DNA from: a virus
Lineage: Duplodnaviria; Heunggongvirae; Uroviricota; Caudoviricetes
Strand: one strand, 5' to 3'
Virus record (IMG/VR): IMGVR_UViG_2734482567_000007
DNA: 38,873 bases
Part shown: piece by piece, positions 7,460 through 17,607 of the stretch
How positions within the stretch are numbered: position 1 is the first letter of the stretch
How the letters are laid out: each line of letters starts with the position of its first letter
Position numbers and translations under genes: made by a program
Notes under the pieces: model-generated
Databases searched by the model: none
What the model was told of the DNA's origin: nothing
What the model saw: the letters and a program-made list of their open reading frames with translations, nothing else

Positions 7460-8011
7460 ATGATGAAATTACAACCCATGGGACTAAAAGGTCGCGCCCC
7501 CGCTCATGTCCGTCCGTGGACACCTGAAGAAGATGCGCTGCTGATTGCGCTTTATTCATCCACCCCGGTTAAGGATATTGCTGCCAGAATAAAAAGAACT
7601 GTCTGGGCTGTATATAACCGGACTGGTGTATTGCGCAGTTCATACCCGGAGTTACTGAAATATAAACACCCAAGATTTACACCTGATGAAGATAAGTTTA
7701 TTCGAAAAAATGCCAGAACAATGACCTGCCAGCAAATGGGAGAATATCTCGGACGTAATAAAGATTCTGTCAGATGTCGGGCAGGAATGATTGGTGCTGG
7801 ATTAACAAAGTGCGGAGAGTTACGCCCCGGCACGCGCATATCTGATGATGATGTACGTCTTATACGTGAGCTGCGTGATTCCGATTACCCACGCCGTCTG
7901 TCATTCCGGGAAATTGGCGAAAAGTTTGGAATATCTGAACATTCTGCTCACGCAGTTTATTACCGTCGCCGGACTGCCGAGGACGCTGTATTACGGGAGT
8001 TAACGCCATGA
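7460..8011 (+). CDS. Putative DNA-binding protein with Myb/SANT-like repeats
   Basis: 183 aa; repeated W/F-TP-[ED]ED motifs (WTPEEDALLIALY, FTPDEDKFIRKNA) and C-terminal HTH-like segment; locally AT-rich. Confidence 0.4.
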   Translation: MMKLQPMGLKGRAPAHVRPWTPEEDALLIALYSSTPVKDIAARIKRTVWAVYNRTGVLRSSYPELLKYKHPRFTPDEDKFIRKNARTMTCQQMGEYLGRNKDSVRCRAGMIGAGLTKCGELRPGTRISDDDVRLIRELRDSDYPRRLSFREIGEKFGISEHSAHAVYYRRRTAEDAVLRELTP

Positions 8012-8340
8012 TAACGACCTTATTTGTTGAATCAGATGAACCTCTTGTGTGTGCCGCCGGAATGCCGCTCTGTGGCGGAACGCTGACCGGCGTTTATTTC
8101 GGGGATTTGCGCGGTTATCCCTGGCATTCACTGGATGACGCATTTCCGCCTGATATGGAGGCTGTCGTGCTGATTGTTCAGTATGGTGACCAACAGGAAC
8201 TGCGCATCGGCCATATGGGGTATGAAGGCTTTTTTATTGATGAAGAAACCGGAGCCTGCCTTGAAGATGAGGACGGACAGGTGACGCACTGGTGCCATCT
8301 TTCGGCCTTGCCGGAATTACAGGGGATACATAATGGATGA
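8008..8340 (+). CDS. Hypothetical early accessory protein
   Basis: 110 aa ORF overlapping previous stop. Confidence 0.35.
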   Translation: MITTLFVESDEPLVCAAGMPLCGGTLTGVYFGDLRGYPWHSLDDAFPPDMEAVVLIVQYGDQQELRIGHMGYEGFFIDEETGACLEDEDGQVTHWCHLSALPELQGIHNG

Positions 8341-8476
8341 GCAAATTGTTGAATGTCCCACCTGTGGAAATGAGGACCCGGAGTATCTGAAAGAGTGCCC
8401 ACATTGTGGTGAGATAAAATGTAACCACTGCGATATGGGCGACGACACTGCATGTATAAATTGTGAGGATGAATAA
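8333..8476 (+). CDS. 47-aa C4 zinc-ribbon protein (not in supplied ORF track)
   Basis: ATG at 8333; MDEQIVECPTCGNEDPEYLKECPHCGEIKCNHCDMGDDTACINCEDE with CxxC pairs; tight packing with neighbours. Confidence 0.4.
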   Translation: MDEQIVECPTCGNEDPEYLKECPHCGEIKCNHCDMGDDTACINCEDE

Positions 8477-8477
8477 T

Positions 8478-8765
8478 ATGGAAAAAGAAATCAAATTTGC
8501 GCCTAAATCTATCGACGAAGAACTGGCTAAAATCGGCATGCTTGAACGTATGCGGGACATTATCGAATATGCGATAAAAGAAAATCTTGCAGCCAGAGAA
8601 GCCCTTTTGATAATGGAGCGGGAGATTAACCTGATTAAGGATGCTGTATCTCTGGATAATAAAATAGCCCGCGAGGAATACGTTCGCCGTAGGCTCGGTG
8701 TTGATGGTTCAGCAATTCTTACATCTGAACATTATGCAAAAATTTTTAATCTTTTTCAGCGGTAA
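8478..8765 (+). CDS. Hypothetical protein (AT-rich)
   Basis: ATG at 8478 with GAGGA 8 nt upstream; 95 aa; AT-rich codon usage unlike phage core. Confidence 0.4.
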   Translation: MEKEIKFAPKSIDEELAKIGMLERMRDIIEYAIKENLAAREALLIMEREINLIKDAVSLDNKIAREEYVRRRLGVDGSAILTSEHYAKIFNLFQR

Positions 8766-8985
8766 TCCCCATACAGGCCCGGAGATTGTCGAAATGCCAG
8801 TCGGTATTAATATATGAGCCATCCTGGATATCTTCTGCATTTTCCGGGGTAGAGTTTTTTTGAGCGAGATTGATAATATGTATTGCCTCCTCACGGGAAA
8901 TCAGCCCCTTATCGAACAGGGTTACCATAAGATTTCCAGCCATTGTGAATGCGGCAACATCAAGTGCATTTTTTATATCTGACAT
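8746..8985 (-). CDS. Hypothetical protein encoded antisense to the early operon
   Basis: 79 aa; strong RBS AAAAGGAAAAATCT before ATG; convergent with and overlapping 3' end of previous gene; AT-rich. Confidence 0.45.
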   Translation of the reverse strand: MSDIKNALDVAAFTMAGNLMVTLFDKGLISREEAIHIINLAQKNSTPENAEDIQDGSYINTDWHFDNLRACMGITAEKD

Positions 8986-9013
8986 AGATTTTTCCTTTTA
9001 TGTTAATTGACAT

Positions 9014-9041
9014 GGCGGTGCGGTAACACCGCCCATTTTTT
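9014..9041 (+). terminator. Intrinsic terminator-like hairpin upstream of gemA
   Basis: GGCGGTG-CGGTAA-CACCGCC perfect 7-bp stem followed by ATTTTTTAT. Confidence 0.5.
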
Positions 9042-9055
9042 ATGGAGCCACGATA

Positions 9056-9568
9056 ATGAATCGCGCTTCCCTGATTACCTTAATACATGTCGCAAAACGC
9101 GATCTACAGCTTGACCATGATACCTATACATCCGCGCTGCTGGCAGCCACCGGCAAATCCAGTTGCCGTGATATGTCACCCGGTGAGTTATCCCGCGTGC
9201 TGGATGTTTTCAAAAAACGCGGTTTTAAAGTGCGTCAGAAGCCGGTTAACCGGGCCTTAAAACCGGGTACGGTGACCGCCAAAATTCGCGCCATCTGGAA
9301 AGTGATGCACCGGCAGGGATTTATCTCTGATGGCGGGGAAACGGCCCTTAACCGCTGGGTGAAATCGCAGACGGCCGCGCAGAACGACGGCGAAGGTGTG
9401 GCTAACTGGCAGTGGCTGGAGCAACAACCCGCGCTGGCCTCTGATGTGCTGGAGCGTCTCAAACGCTGGCACCGCCGCAAAATGCTGGCAGCCCTGGATA
9501 TGTCGGAACGTGCAGTGATGAGTTATGAGCGTGTTTGCAGGCTGTATGAAAAATCATTCCCCCGTTAA
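9056..9568 (+). CDS. gemA: GemA-like early regulatory protein (Mu gp16 family)
   Basis: 170 aa; position immediately before early terminator and activator gene as in Mu; sequence character matches GemA family. Confidence 0.6.
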   Translation: MNRASLITLIHVAKRDLQLDHDTYTSALLAATGKSSCRDMSPGELSRVLDVFKKRGFKVRQKPVNRALKPGTVTAKIRAIWKVMHRQGFISDGGETALNRWVKSQTAAQNDGEGVANWQWLEQQPALASDVLERLKRWHRRKMLAALDMSERAVMSYERVCRLYEKSFPR

Positions 9569-9572
9569 CCCC

Positions 9573-9604
9573 AAATCCCGCCACAGCGCGGGATTTTTAT
9601 TTTA
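9573..9604 (+). terminator. Intrinsic terminator at end of early operon
   Basis: AAATCCCGC-CACAGC-GCGGGATTT hairpin followed by TTATTTT, 5 bp after gemA stop. Confidence 0.7.
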
Positions 9605-9638
9605 AACTTGCCCTGTGTAATGATGACCGGAGGCGGGT

Positions 9639-10061
9639 ATGGCTGAAACACAGATGAGCATGTTTGGTGACAGCGAACAGCTGCACGCGCTGATTGACCG
9701 TCTGGATGATATTCCTGATGATGAGCTGAAAAAGAACTGGCCCGGCACGCTGCGGGACCTGGTTGATGTGATCAGTGCTGAACTGCACCGTCAGGGGATT
9801 GAACCTGCTCAGGCGGGAATGCTTGCCCGTAAGGTTGCAGCCGCACAGGCCGGGTACATGGGCGGGCGTGGTTATTATCTCCCGGTCGGTGAATCCCTTT
9901 TCACCGAACTGCGCAATAATGAAATTTTTTCCCGCTGGAGCCAGGGCGAAAAAATTGAAACCCTGCGCCGCCACTACCAGATGTCAGAGACGCAGATTTA
10001 CTCCGTTATCCGCAACCAGCGTCGCCTGCATCAGGAACGCACGCAGCCACGGCTTTTCTGA
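9639..10061 (+). CDS. Mor/C-family transcriptional activator (middle/late gene activator)
   Basis: 140 aa; GGAGG RBS; position between early terminator and lysis genes; C-terminal HTH-like region typical of Mor/C family. Confidence 0.65.
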   Translation: MAETQMSMFGDSEQLHALIDRLDDIPDDELKKNWPGTLRDLVDVISAELHRQGIEPAQAGMLARKVAAAQAGYMGGRGYYLPVGESLFTELRNNEIFSRWSQGEKIETLRRHYQMSETQIYSVIRNQRRLHQERTQPRLF

Positions 10062-10132
10062 TATTCCGCAAATCCTGCCCCCTTTTCCTCACGGTTACGC
10101 TGACTCAGAGAACACCATGAGACAGCGTAACA

Positions 10133-10633
10133 ATGCCAAAACTCCCCGCACCCCTGCGTAAAAAGCTGATTGCCCTTGTTCTGGCCGGAGCCGGGACGTT
10201 CACCATTGCCACGCACTACACCGGCTACTGGGAAGGGAAAGAAAACACCACGTACATTGATCCCACCGGCACCCCCACCATCTGTTACGGCCATACCGGC
10301 CCGGATGTGAAACCGGGGATGACAAAAACTGATGAAGAGTGTCTGGAGCTGCTGGAAAAGGACATGAAATGGGCCTTTGCGGCTATCGATCGTCATGTTC
10401 AGGTGCCGCTTACCCGTGGTCAGACGGTGGCGCTGGCCTCCTGGATTTTCTGGGCCGGTGAAACGAACTTTCGCAACTCCACGCTCCTGCGCCTTATCAA
10501 TGCCGGGCAGATGCCCGCGTCCTGTAAGCAGTATATCCGCTGGATTTATTCAAAGGGGGTAAAACTCCCCGGTCTTGAGGCCCGCCGTTCGGCGGATGAA
10601 TGGTTATGTCGTTACGATTTGCCGAAAGTCTGA
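10133..10633 (+). CDS. lys: SAR endolysin (T4-type lysozyme fold)
   Basis: 166 aa; N-terminal Gly/Ala-rich weakly hydrophobic segment (LIALVLAGAGTFTIAT) then E-x8-D-x5-T catalytic spacing (WEGKENTTYIDPTGTPT). Confidence 0.75.
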   Translation: MPKLPAPLRKKLIALVLAGAGTFTIATHYTGYWEGKENTTYIDPTGTPTICYGHTGPDVKPGMTKTDEECLELLEKDMKWAFAAIDRHVQVPLTRGQTVALASWIFWAGETNFRNSTLLRLINAGQMPASCKQYIRWIYSKGVKLPGLEARRSADEWLCRYDLPKV

Positions 10634-17522: not shown

Positions 17523-17607
17523 CGGTCAGTGGCGGGGGTCGAACCCGCATACATGATCCACCCGGAGGCAGGCACCGACTTTACCAGTTAAGCGTACACT
17601 GACCGCC
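17523..17607 (-). other. Structured tRNA-like element (T-arm plus acceptor-like stem), not a canonical tRNA
   Basis: Minus strand shows GTCAGTG...CACTGAC 7-8 bp terminal helix enclosing GCGGG-TTCGACC-CCCGC T-arm-like hairpin; no acceptable anticodon arm found. Confidence 0.3.

What the first reader, a model, noticed from the sequence alone, without database searches (positions are those of the whole stretch)
8478..9041. Convergent AT-rich gene pair with an antisense-oriented gene and a terminator inside the early operon
The gene at 8746-8985 is on the minus strand within an otherwise plus-strand early operon, has a strong RBS, and overlaps the 3' end of the preceding plus-strand gene by about 20 bp. 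Both genes are AT-rich relative to the phage core, suggesting recent acquisition. A strong plus-strand hairpin plus T-tract (9014-9041) lies between this pair and gemA, which would terminate or attenuate early transcription before gemA and the activator gene. Such opposite-strand cargo in Mu-like early regions often turns out to be defence, anti-defence or exclusion functions.
Basis: partly seen in the sequence, partly recalled or inferred. Interest (0 to 1): 0.6.

Follow-up and report, generated by a model that had tools for sequence, protein, structure and literature searches.

The report
Phage Mu gp14/gp15 convergent gene pair
The opposite-strand gene and its partner are real, but they are the counterparts of two uncharacterised phage Mu genes (gp14 and gp15) in an E. 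coli Mu-like prophage, bracketed by two oppositely oriented terminator-like hairpins; there is no evidence that they are newly acquired or act in defence.

Summary
It comprises a plus ORF (8478-8765, 95 aa), a minus ORF (8746-8985, 79 aa, good RBS), a 20-bp 3' overlap, low GC, and a GC hairpin (9014-9033) plus T6 just before gemA.

The window is an Sp18-type Mu-like prophage of E. coli. The plus gene is a homolog of phage Mu gp14 (E15). The minus gene belongs to the Mu gp15 (Mup15) family, and the Zn-ribbon ORF before them matches Mu gp13. In every locus examined, from Mu, D108 and SfMu to Klebsiella and Photobacterium prophages, gp14 and gp15 occur together. They always converge and overlap by 20-98 bp, and they always sit directly upstream of gemA.

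Two conserved, covarying hairpins bracket gp15:
- a new one (8666-8695, followed by a U-rich tail) that would terminate the gp15 transcript inside gp14.

A different pair, ending in a DUF2513 minus-strand gene, fills the same slot in other prophages with the same architecture.

"Recent acquisition" is not supported, and "defence" has no evidence: Pfam, PADLOC, NCBIfam and PDB searches found nothing. The protein function and the gp15 promoter remain unknown. This is a new member of a known but uncharacterised kind, of modest interest.

The parts
8333..8476 (+). 47-aa, 8-Cys zinc-ribbon ORF, counterpart of Mu gp13 (E14). It is not annotated in RefSeq copies of this prophage.
   Evidence: phrog_5584 E 3e-26. 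Weak Zn-ribbon Pfam hits. An equivalent 46-60-aa ORF precedes the gp14 homolog in L015, L017, L019-L026 and Mu. The RefSeq gap is seen.
8478..8765 (+). 95-aa helical protein, a homolog of phage Mu gp14 (old name E15).
   Evidence: phrog_6075 E 5e-44. tblastn to Mu 7655-7936: 49% identity, E 5e-21; D108 gene 14: 56%. pN/pS 0.26 in its own frame. AF2 model pLDDT 87, four helices.
8746..8985 (-). 79-aa three-helix protein, a member of the Mu gp15 (Mup15) family.
   Evidence: phrog_32893 E 1e-45. BLASTP to the L017 ortholog E 6e-14. hhalign against the Mu gp15 group: probability 95%, E 4e-8 over the N-terminal 43 aa. RefSeq Mu annotates Mup15 on the minus strand in the same position. pN/pS is lowest in this frame. 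AF2 pLDDT 74.
8746..8765 (.). 20-bp 3'-3' overlap of the convergent genes.
   Evidence: An overlap of 20-98 bp is present in all 11 loci measured.
8656..8695 (-). Terminator-like element for the gp15 transcript, embedded in gp14 codons 60-73 (NKIAREEYVRRRLG). The hairpin is 8666-8695 and the U-rich tail AUUUUAUUAU is 8656-8665.
   Evidence: A hairpin plus U-rich tail lies 19-51 nt after the gp15 stop in 11 of 12 loci scanned; in the 12th (L075) the orthologous hairpin is weak. On 11 sequences, 91.6% of cells are paired, 5 pairs show compensatory changes, and 21 G.U cells pair only in minus-strand RNA. The window allele is weak (dG -9.7 kcal/mol, two mismatches).
8986..9055 (.). 70-bp divergent spacer between the gp15 ATG and the gemA ATG. 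It holds the gp15 SD (8993-8997, minus strand) and the gemA SD (9044-9047, plus strand).
   Evidence: The spacer is 64-91 bp in 9 loci. It is invariant among 5 E. coli genomes that differ by 2-8% elsewhere. The equivalent Mu interval is annotated 'semi-early promoter, PMID 9454718'.
9014..9041 (+). GC hairpin GGCGGTG-cggtaa-CACCGCC (9014-9033) followed by CA and T6 (9036-9041). It looks like a plus-strand intrinsic terminator or attenuator and ends 22 nt before the gemA ATG.
   Evidence: Pattern scan. It folds in all 9 orthologs. 100% of 70 cells are paired, there are 2 compensatory pairs, and 4 G.U cells pair only in plus-strand RNA. It is present in all 8 gp15 loci, in all 5 loci with a 115-136-aa DUF2513-type minus ORF, and in 2 loci where no minus ORF was called. 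No such hairpin ends 20-23 nt before the ATG where gemA directly abuts a plus-strand ORF.
9056..9568 (+). gemA (Mu gp16 family), the conserved right-hand neighbour of the module.
   Evidence: PF06252 E 1.8e-28.
9573..9606 (+). Second terminator-like hairpin plus T-run, in the gemA-mor spacer. It resembles the Mu middle promoter/terminator region. It is context, not part of the pair.
9639..10061 (+). Mor/C-family activator, the only one in this phage. Context.
   Evidence: PF08765 E 6.7e-31.

Best explanation
SHOWN.
- The interval is the Mu gp13-gp14-gp15 module in an Sp18-type Mu-like prophage of E. coli.
- gp14 (plus strand) and gp15 (minus strand) form an obligately linked, convergent, 3'-overlapping pair that always sits immediately upstream of gemA.
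- Two conserved hairpins of opposite polarity flank gp15.
  - T(-), at 8656-8695, lies inside gp14 codons 60-73 and is followed by a U-rich tail on the minus strand.
  - T(+), at 9014-9041, lies between the gp15 start and the gemA ribosome-binding site and is followed by a T-tract on the plus strand.

INFERRED MECHANISM.
- gp15 is its own leftward transcription unit. It would start in or beyond the 70-bp spacer and end at T(-).
- Rightward early transcripts would read through gp13 and gp14, run antisense across all of gp15, and be stopped or attenuated at T(+). The T(-) hairpin has no U-tract in the rightward direction.
- About 390 nt (8656-9041) would then be transcribed from both strands, so strong early transcription and gp15 expression would antagonise each other. 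gp15 would be made mainly when the early promoter is repressed, that is, in the lysogen.
- T(+) would also uncouple gemA-mor from the upstream early genes. This fits the separate 'semi-early promoter' annotated at this spot in Mu, and the fact that gemA abuts the upstream ORF in relatives that lack a reverse gene.

UNKNOWN. The biochemical function of the two small helical proteins is unknown. My best guess is a lysogen-expressed modulator paired with an early lytic protein, at roughly 35% likelihood.
For: Identity:
- PHROG hits for both proteins.
- gp14: tblastn to Mu, D108, SfMu and Yersinia Mu-like phages.
- gp15: profile-profile match to the Mu gp15 group, probability 95%.
- RefSeq Mup15 and SfMu_16 are annotated on the minus strand in the same place.
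- A coherent alignment of 23 family members.

Linkage:
- In a survey of 102 GemA loci, the gp15 hits and the gp14 hits fall in the same 8 loci.
- Distant members P0025 and P0040 again converge on a gp14 homolog next to gemA.
- The two genes overlap in all 11 loci measured.

The minus gene is coding: pN/pS is lowest in its own frame.

T(+):
- It is present with every reverse-gene cassette. No such hairpin ends 20-23 nt before the ATG where gemA directly abuts a plus-strand ORF.
- It shows covariation, and its G.U pairs are valid only on the plus strand.
- It has T6-T8 tails in the window, L015, L033 and L034.

T(-):
- It is clear in 11 of 12 gp15 loci, and an analogous element lies after the DUF2513 genes.
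- It has 5 compensatory pairs and 21 G.U cells valid only on the minus strand.
- TransTermHP also predicted a terminator at the equivalent Mu position, 7839-7873.

A separate gemA unit in Mu:
- A 'semi-early promoter' is annotated at 8151-8217.
Against: - No transcript data were available, so termination at either hairpin is untested.
- In the window allele T(-) is weak (dG -9.7 kcal/mol, two mismatches), and T(+) has a 2-nt spacer before its T6.
- In Mu, D108 and L017 the tail after T(+) is U-poor (CCCTTTCC, TGTATTAT), and TransTermHP did not call it in Mu. Termination may therefore not be its conserved role.
- No positionally conserved sigma-70 promoter for gp15 was found within 300 nt in 9 loci.
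- mor is needed for lytic growth in Mu, according to the literature. An efficient terminator upstream would need read-through or an internal promoter, and I could not locate one in the sequence.
- The 20-nt T(+) hairpin, loop included, is identical between loci whose gp15 proteins are only about 39% identical. This hints at an extra constraint on sequence rather than structure alone.
Confidence: 0.6

Rival explanations
1. The pair is recently acquired AT-rich cargo that encodes a defence, anti-defence or superinfection-exclusion function, and the hairpin is its insulating terminator.
For: - Distribution is patchy: 20 of 232 E. coli genomes with this prophage family and 8 of 97 GemA loci.
- GC is low.
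- The slot is exchangeable: a pair ending in a minus-strand DUF2513 gene occupies it in other prophages.
- The minus orientation would allow expression independent of the repressed early promoter.
- Opposite-strand overlapping genes with exclusion activity are reported in a Pseudomonas Mu-like phage (PMC9936078).
Against: - The same arrangement occurs in Mu, D108 and SfMu and in Klebsiella and Photobacterium prophages at 25-49% identity, so the association with gemA is old.
- Low GC is shared by all copies.
- PADLOC, Pfam and NCBIfam gave no hits, and PDB fold and sequence searches gave no significant hits.
Confidence: 0.15
2. The plus-strand hairpin is not mainly a terminator. It would be part of the gemA leader or promoter region, acting as a 5' stem-loop that stabilises gemA-mor mRNA, as a processing site, or as a structure that shields the gemA ribosome-binding site from the long untranslated antisense-gp15 RNA. 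The T-tract in this allele would then be incidental.
For: - The stem is conserved with covariation, while the downstream tail varies from T8 to CCCTTTCC.
- The hairpin always ends 20-23 nt before the gemA ATG, about 8-10 nt before the SD.
- The Mu annotation places a 'semi-early promoter' at 8151-8217. That interval contains the hairpin and ends about 5 nt after it. For Pm, the annotated interval ends about 7 nt after a -10-like hexamer, which I infer is the transcription start.
- gemA has its own SD only in loci with the hairpin; elsewhere it directly abuts the upstream ORF.
Against: - Six of the ten distinct sequences have at least 5 T within the 8-9 nt after the stem, the classical terminator form.
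- No convincing -10/-35 was found upstream of the hairpin at a conserved position.
- The paper behind the Mu promoter annotation could not be read.
Confidence: 0.25
3. The inverted repeat GGCGGTG-N6-CACCGCC acts as DNA. It would be an operator for a dimeric regulator of the divergent gp15 and gemA genes, or a conserved junction at which cassettes are exchanged by recombination.
For: - The 20-nt sequence, loop included, is identical in the window, L015 and L033, and a second version is identical in Mu, D108 and a Klebsiella prophage. The flanking genes are much more diverged.
- Homology between prophages carrying different cassettes resumes within a few nucleotides of the T-tract, at window 9037-9040.
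Against: - Four G.U cells break the DNA palindrome but keep plus-strand RNA pairing, and other lineages have different arm sequences with preserved pairing.
- No candidate binding protein was identified.
Confidence: 0.08
4. The minus-strand ORF is a chance ORF and the real coding potential is on the plus strand, as in the updated GenBank Mu record, which annotates a plus-strand 'Mu_54' there.
For: - AF083977 annotates Mu_54 (7960-8127, plus strand) in place of gp15.
- Frameshifted versions of the minus ORF exist in some draft assemblies.
Against: - No plus-strand ORF is conserved across the loci.
- pN/pS is lowest in the minus frame.
- The minus-frame protein family is alignable across 23 members at 19-41% identity.
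- All 14 complete E. coli genomes keep the ORF intact.
- The frameshifts lie at homopolymer runs.
Confidence: 0.02

Closest known systems
Phage Mu gp14 (Mup14, old E15) and gp15 (Mup15), with gp13 (E14), upstream of gemA (gp16); also D108 gene 14 and SfMu_15/SfMu_16
   Same: - Homologous proteins: gp14 at 49% identity; gp15 N-terminal domain with hhalign probability 95%.
- Same gene order: gp13, gp14, reversed gp15, gemA.
- Same convergent 3' overlap (62 bp in Mu, 20 bp here) and the same low GC.
- Same GGCGGTG/CACCGCC hairpin before the gemA RBS, and the same hairpin inside gp14.

   Different: - The host phage here is Sp18-type: a single Mor/C gene directly followed by lysozyme, plus TraR and SANT/Myb genes. 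It is not Mu-type.
- The C-terminal half of the 79-aa protein resembles the L017 subgroup (WHxDNL motif) rather than Mu gp15.
- The T-tract after the hairpin is much better here than in Mu.
- The Mu proteins are themselves uncharacterised, so the homology gives no function.
Morons (autonomous extra genes in prophages, with their own promoter and terminator; concept as summarised in PMC4378225)
   Same: - A small accessory unit, present or absent between conserved neighbours.
- Deviant base composition.
- Its own terminator-like element for the reverse gene.
- An orientation that would permit expression from the repressed prophage.

   Different: - It is a two-gene convergent unit rather than a single gene.
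- The reverse gene's terminator is embedded in its partner's coding sequence.
- No promoter was identified.
- The association with gemA is ancient rather than a recent insertion.
Mu early terminator / middle promoter Pm arrangement downstream of mor (the terminator hairpin overlaps the annotated Pm region)
   Same: A GC hairpin plus T-run sits at the boundary between two temporal transcription units of a Mu-type phage, overlapping an annotated promoter region.
   Different: - The sequence is different, and the position is before gemA rather than after mor.
- No Mor-type binding site was recognised.
- The window has a separate Pm-like element at 9573-9606.
Convergent or antisense regulatory units of temperate phages, such as lambda OOP RNA against cII and P22 sar against ant (recalled from general knowledge, not tested here)
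   Same: Transcripts from opposite strands overlap at their 3' ends, so expression of one partner depends on the activity of the other promoter.
   Different: - Here the leftward unit encodes a conserved protein rather than only an antisense RNA.
- No RNA-level regulation has been shown.
Overlapping exclusion genes olg1 / gene 10 of Pseudomonas Mu-like phage Fc02 (PMC9936078)
   Same: Genes on opposite strands overlap in the early region of a transposable phage. One is expressed in the lysogen and one from the early promoter, and both have superinfection-exclusion activity.
   Different: - They lie next to the repressor and ner, not next to gemA.
- Homology to gp14 or gp15 was not tested here, and the window pair has no functional data.

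Membership tests
Mu gp15 (Mup15) family / phrog_32893 | Sequence homology to Mu gp15 and its relatives | tested here: met
   - phrog_32893 E 1.3e-45 over the full length.
- hhalign of the window group against the Mu gp15 group: probability 95%, E 4e-8 over 43 aa.
- Direct BLASTP to Mu gp15 is not significant (E 0.38). The link is through intermediates: window to L017 at 6e-14, and L015 to Mu at 2e-23.
Mu gp15 (Mup15) family / phrog_32893 | Position and orientation: minus strand, start codon 64-91 nt from the gemA start and divergent from it | tested here: met
   The spacer is 70 nt in both the window and Mu. The same layout holds in all the gp15-family loci measured.
Mu gp14 (E15) family / phrog_6075 | Sequence homology, and convergent 3' overlap with a gp15 homolog | tested here: met
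   - phrog_6075 E 5e-44.
- tblastn to Mu at 49% identity, E 5e-21.
- Overlap present in 11 of 11 loci.
- Co-occurrence with gp15 in 8 of 8 surveyed loci.
Intrinsic (Rho-independent) terminator, plus strand, 9014-9041 | GC-rich stem-loop immediately followed by a U-tract | tested here: met
   A 7-bp stem with 6 GC pairs, a 6-nt loop, then CA and T6. The stem is conserved with covariation. The U-tract is strong in 6 of 10 orthologous sequences and weak in Mu, D108, L017 and L022.
Intrinsic (Rho-independent) terminator, plus strand, 9014-9041 | Causes transcript release by RNA polymerase | not testable with these tools
   Requires in vitro transcription or Term-seq.
Intrinsic terminator, minus strand, 8656-8695 | Stem-loop followed by a U-tract downstream of the gene it serves | tested here: met
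   It lies 50 nt after the gp15 stop, with the tail AUUUUAUUAU. 91.6% of cells are paired, with 5 compensatory pairs and 21 minus-strand-only G.U cells. The window allele is weak (-9.7 kcal/mol).
Moron | Own promoter | tested here: inconclusive
   No positionally conserved sigma-70 -35/-10 was found within 300 nt upstream of gp15 in 9 loci. The best candidate in the window is CTGCCA-18-TATCAT at 9146-9117, inside gemA, and it is not conserved.
Moron | Inserted between genes that are adjacent in related phages, with deviant composition | tested here: met
   Sp18-type relatives lack the pair, and there gemA directly abuts the upstream plus-strand ORF. GC is 0.39-0.42 against 0.55.
Known anti-phage defence systems (PADLOC-DB) | Match to a defence-system protein model | tested here: not met
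   There were no hits for gp13, gp14 or gp15 from the window, for the Mu and D108 homologs, for the DUF2513 genes, or for the reverse genes of L005 and L006. One DUF2513 partner (L002) gave only a weak, non-significant match (E 0.068).
Toxin-antitoxin pair | Two small co-transcribed genes, or a protein gene with an antisense RNA, with homology to known toxin or antitoxin families | tested here: not met
   The genes are convergent rather than an operon, and Pfam and NCBIfam find no homology to known families. Toxicity was not testable.

The most novel reading that the evidence does not exclude
The interval just upstream of gemA would be an undescribed accessory hotspot of Mu-like phages that accepts interchangeable, self-insulated, two-gene convergent cassettes: gp14/gp15 here, and an unrelated partner plus DUF2513 elsewhere.

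Each cassette would carry a lysogen-expressed reverse gene with a terminator hidden in its partner's coding sequence. Each would also carry a plus-strand terminator that splits the early operon, so that gemA-mor becomes a separately timed unit.

The reverse genes would be lysogenic-conversion functions, such as exclusion, defence, or control of the lytic switch, set in antisense opposition to early transcription.
Probability: 0.2. Interest if true: 0.6.

Novelty: new member of a known kind. Interest (0 to 1): 0.33.

Why it matters
The immediate value is corrective: the 'antisense cargo' is the counterpart of two long-annotated but unstudied genes of the paradigm phage Mu, so nothing here is a new kind of system.

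Three points could still interest Mu specialists.
- gp14 and gp15 are strictly co-inherited, and conserved terminator-like hairpins of opposite polarity bracket gp15. One is encoded within the most conserved gp14 motif. This predicts a roughly 390-nt region transcribed from both strands, and a testable switch between early transcription and gp15 expression.
- The plus-strand hairpin occurs in every locus where a reverse gene precedes gemA. This gives a structural rationale for treating gemA-mor as a separate ('semi-early') unit in Mu.
- The evidence favours RefSeq's minus-strand gp15 over the plus-strand 'Mu_54' of the updated GenBank Mu record.

Tried and rejected
- **Family searches.** Pfam, NCBIfam and PADLOC gave nothing for either protein or for their Mu and D108 homologs. 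PHROGs recognises both proteins, but only as families of unknown function.
- **Structure.** The AF2 models are small helical bundles (pLDDT 74 and 87). Foldseek against the PDB found nothing below E 0.4. PDB sequence-profile searches found nothing significant.
- **RNA families.** Rfam found no credible family in 8000-10200.
- **Programmed frameshift or phase variation at the A7 run (8855-8861).** Rejected. The alternative-frame versions all arise at homopolymers in draft or Logan assemblies, and all 14 complete genomes are in frame.
- **Promoter for gp15 or for gemA.** PWM scans of 9 divergent loci gave no positionally conserved candidate. The perfect TTGACA at 9007-9012 has no usable -10.
- **Chance ORF, or plus-strand coding (Mu_54).** Rejected.
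- **Literature.** The paper behind Mu's 'semi-early promoter' (PMID 9454718) is not held. Searches for Mup15, DUF2513, 'semi-early' and 'semi-essential early' gave nothing on gp14 or gp15.
- **ARAGORN.** No tRNA was found in the window.
Full report
**1. What is in the sequence.**
The window is a Mu-like prophage of E. coli. Region 8300-9100 is 100% identical to five complete E. coli chromosomes and 92-99.9% identical to nine more. The surrounding genes are Mu transposase A, MuB, Gam, gp11, gp12, GemA, Mor, lysozyme and TraR, that is, the Sp18 type of O157 Sakai.

- a plus ORF at 8478-8765 (95 aa);
- a minus ORF at 8746-8985 (79 aa), with an AAGGA SD 7 nt from its ATG;
- a 20-bp 3' overlap;
- GC of 0.39 and 0.42, against 0.55 for gemA;
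- a hairpin GGCGGTG-cggtaa-CACCGCC at 9014-9033, then CA and T6;
- the gemA SD, and the gemA ATG at 9056.

A 47-aa, eight-cysteine zinc-ribbon ORF (8333-8476) directly precedes the plus gene. RefSeq does not annotate it.

**2. The two genes are Mu gp14 and gp15.**
Both proteins hit PHROG families of unknown function. Neither hits anything in Pfam, NCBIfam or PADLOC.

The plus protein is a gp14 homolog. tblastn places it on phage Mu at 7655-7936 (49% identity, E 5e-21). That is Mu_14/gp14, formerly E15. It also matches D108 gene 14, SfMu and several Yersinia Mu-like phages.

The minus protein needs intermediates to reach Mu:
- It has few close relatives.
- The gp14 homologs P0015, P0017 and P0018 are each followed by a convergent, overlapping minus ORF.
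- Those ORFs share the motif D-x-A-A-F-x-M/L-A-G-N-L-x-x-x-L-x-x-K-G-x-I-x-x-x-E-A with the window protein.
- BLASTP of the window protein against the L017 ortholog gives E 6e-14.
- Reading the Mu minus strand in the equivalent place gives an 88-aa ORF. It matches the L015 ortholog at E 2e-23.
- RefSeq annotates that ORF as Mup15/gp15, at 7896-8162 on the minus strand. SfMu_16 is the same gene.
- D108 has an unannotated 119-aa member.
- A profile-profile comparison of the window group with the Mu gp15 group gives probability 95% and E 4e-8 over the N-terminal 43 residues.

An exhaustive HMM search of 1.84 billion representative proteins found about 25 small proteins (67-91 aa) that form one alignable family.

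**3. The minus ORF is a gene.**
- Its frame has the lowest pN/pS of all six frames: 0.27 against 0.60-1.90 for window vs L012, and 0.11 for L017 vs L022.
- It is intact in all 14 complete genomes that carry it.
- No plus-strand ORF is conserved in this interval.

The updated GenBank Mu record (AF083977) replaces gp15 with a plus-strand 'Mu_54'. That call is found only in Mu and SfMu, and this evidence does not support it. Frameshifted versions of the protein in draft assemblies all arise at homopolymer runs, including the A7 run at 8855-8861. I read them as sequencing errors or occasional pseudogenes.

**4. The pair is a linked module tied to gemA.**
- In 102 GemA-containing loci, the gp15 and gp14 profile hits fall in exactly the same 8 loci. 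The set comprises 32 viral contigs close to this phage and 70 species-representative genomes. The 8 loci include a Klebsiella plasmid prophage and Photobacterium frigidiphilum.
- Distant family members P0025 (39% identity) and P0040 (25%) again sit convergent with a gp14 homolog and divergent from gemA.
- The 3' overlap is 20-98 bp in all 11 loci measured.
- GC of the pair is 0.37-0.46 in the enterobacterial copies, against 0.53-0.57 for gemA.

Low GC is therefore a property of the module everywhere, not a sign of recent arrival in this phage. The module is nevertheless accessory. Only 20 of the 232 E. coli genomes with this prophage family carry it. In Sakai Sp18 and most relatives, the genes before gemA are all rightward and directly abut gemA.

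**5.
All nine distinct orthologous spacers fold into a GC-rich hairpin at the same place. On an alignment of ten sequences:
- 100% of 70 cells pair;
- two pairs change on both sides (CG/UA, and GC/CG or UG);
- four G.U cells would be A.C mismatches in the opposite strand.

The constraint is therefore on plus-strand RNA.

In the survey, a hairpin ending 20-23 nt before the gemA ATG occurs in:
- all 8 gp15 loci;
- all 5 loci with a 115-136-aa DUF2513-type minus ORF;
- 2 loci where no minus ORF was called.

No such hairpin occurs at that position where gemA directly abuts a plus-strand ORF. The tail is T6-T8 in the window, L015, L033 and L034, but U-poor in Mu, D108, L017 and L022. In this phage it looks like a respectable intrinsic terminator. 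Across the family, the stem is the constant part.

In Mu, the interval holding the hairpin is annotated 'semi-early promoter, PMID 9454718'. I could not read that paper. [quoted passage not shown]

**6. A second, oppositely oriented terminator-like element, T(-).**
Folding the minus strand downstream of the gp15 stop shows a hairpin followed by a U-rich tail 19-51 nt after the stop, clearly in 11 of 12 loci. In the 12th (L075) the orthologous hairpin is weak. The element lies inside the gp14 coding sequence.

- In the window the hairpin is 8666-8695 and the tail AUUUUAUUAU is 8656-8665. This corresponds to gp14 codons 60-73, NKIAREEYVRRRLG, its most conserved motif.
- On 11 sequences aligned without gaps, 91.6% of 143 cells pair and five pairs show compensatory changes.
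- 21 cells are G.U pairs that exist only in the minus-strand RNA.
- Sliding the partners by 1-3 columns drops pairing to 38-47%.
- TransTermHP had predicted a terminator at the equivalent Mu position (7839-7873).
- The window allele is weak (-9.7 kcal/mol, two mismatches). The 92%-identical L012 allele gives -15.7 kcal/mol.

This element is indirect evidence that gp15 is transcribed as its own leftward unit. It also explains part of why gp14 and gp15 cannot be separated.

**7. An analogous cassette.**
In other Sp18-type prophages and in Edwardsiella, the same slot holds an unrelated 87-102-aa plus gene. It is convergent with, and overlaps by 39 bp, a 136-137-aa minus gene with a weak DUF2513 match. 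This cassette also has a T(+) hairpin before gemA. It also has a minus-strand hairpin plus U-rich tail inside the partner's conserved AAVAAL motif. Reverse genes also occur between gemA and mor in some relatives.

**8. Mechanism.**
Shown: homology, linkage, orientation, the two covarying strand-specific hairpins, and their association with reverse genes.

Inferred:
- gp15 is a leftward unit ending at T(-).
- Early rightward transcripts cross gp14, run antisense over gp15, and are terminated or attenuated at T(+).
- The two units overlap over about 390 nt and should interfere with each other. gp15 would therefore be favoured when the early promoter is shut, in the lysogen.
- gemA-mor is partly uncoupled from the early operon.

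Open:
- No gp15 promoter was found.
- The efficiency of either terminator is unknown.
- The extreme sequence conservation of the T(+) hairpin, loop included, suggests an extra role.
- The proteins' functions are unknown. The AF2 models are small helical bundles with no significant PDB neighbours.

**9. Verdict.**
It is wrong on recent acquisition and unsupported on defence. The finding is a new member of a known, uncharacterised Mu gene pair. The added value is the bracketing-terminator architecture and its generality.

Noticed in passing
Mu records: NC_000929.1 7896-8162 (minus) versus AF083977.1 7960-8127 (plus); locus L028 1397-1663: The updated GenBank annotation of phage Mu replaces RefSeq's minus-strand gp15 with a plus-strand 55-aa 'Mu_54'. 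Family conservation, pN/pS and the lack of a conserved plus-strand ORF favour the minus-strand gene.
   Followed up: yes
window 9569-9638: The gemA-mor spacer has a 9-bp hairpin (9573-9596) plus a T-run, then CCTGTGTAATGA. It aligns with Mu's terminator/middle-promoter (Pm) region. Yet this phage has only one Mor/C-family gene, and lysozyme follows it directly. That suggests a Pm-like, possibly autoregulated promoter in front of its own activator gene.
   Followed up: partly
window 8333-8476: A 47-aa ORF with four CxxC motifs (the Mu gp13/E14 family, phrog_5584) is left unannotated in the RefSeq copies of this prophage. It has a weak, non-significant resemblance to Lar-type zinc ribbons (E 0.2).
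   Followed up: partly
L002 8775-9455; L036 756-1436; L068 804-1442: An alternative cassette occupies the same slot: an 87-102-aa plus gene convergent with, and overlapping by 39 bp, a 136-137-aa DUF2513-like minus gene. A hairpin precedes gemA, and a minus-strand terminator-like hairpin lies inside the partner's AAVAAL motif.
   Followed up: partly
L005 2025-2366 and L006 2018-2440 (minus strand): Some Sp18-type prophages carry reverse-strand genes (113 and 140 aa, with no family hits) between gemA and mor. This is a second reverse-gene slot.
   Followed up: partly
window 8855-8861: An A7 run (coding strand) in the middle of the gp15-like gene. Database versions with A6 or A8 shift the C-terminal half into other frames, one of which is the window's alternative ORF 8709-8894. 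This is probably homopolymer sequencing error.
   Followed up: partly
window about 17524-17603 (minus strand; L001 18725-18804): RefSeq annotates a 'tRNA-OTHER' between the minor head protein gene and the virion morphogenesis gene. ARAGORN finds no tRNA anywhere in the window.
   Followed up: partly
L013 1897-2608 and NZ_CP027586.1 (H10): In two E. coli strains an IS1A element has inserted at or next to the gp15-gemA spacer. In L013 it replaces the hairpin and everything to its right.
   Followed up: no
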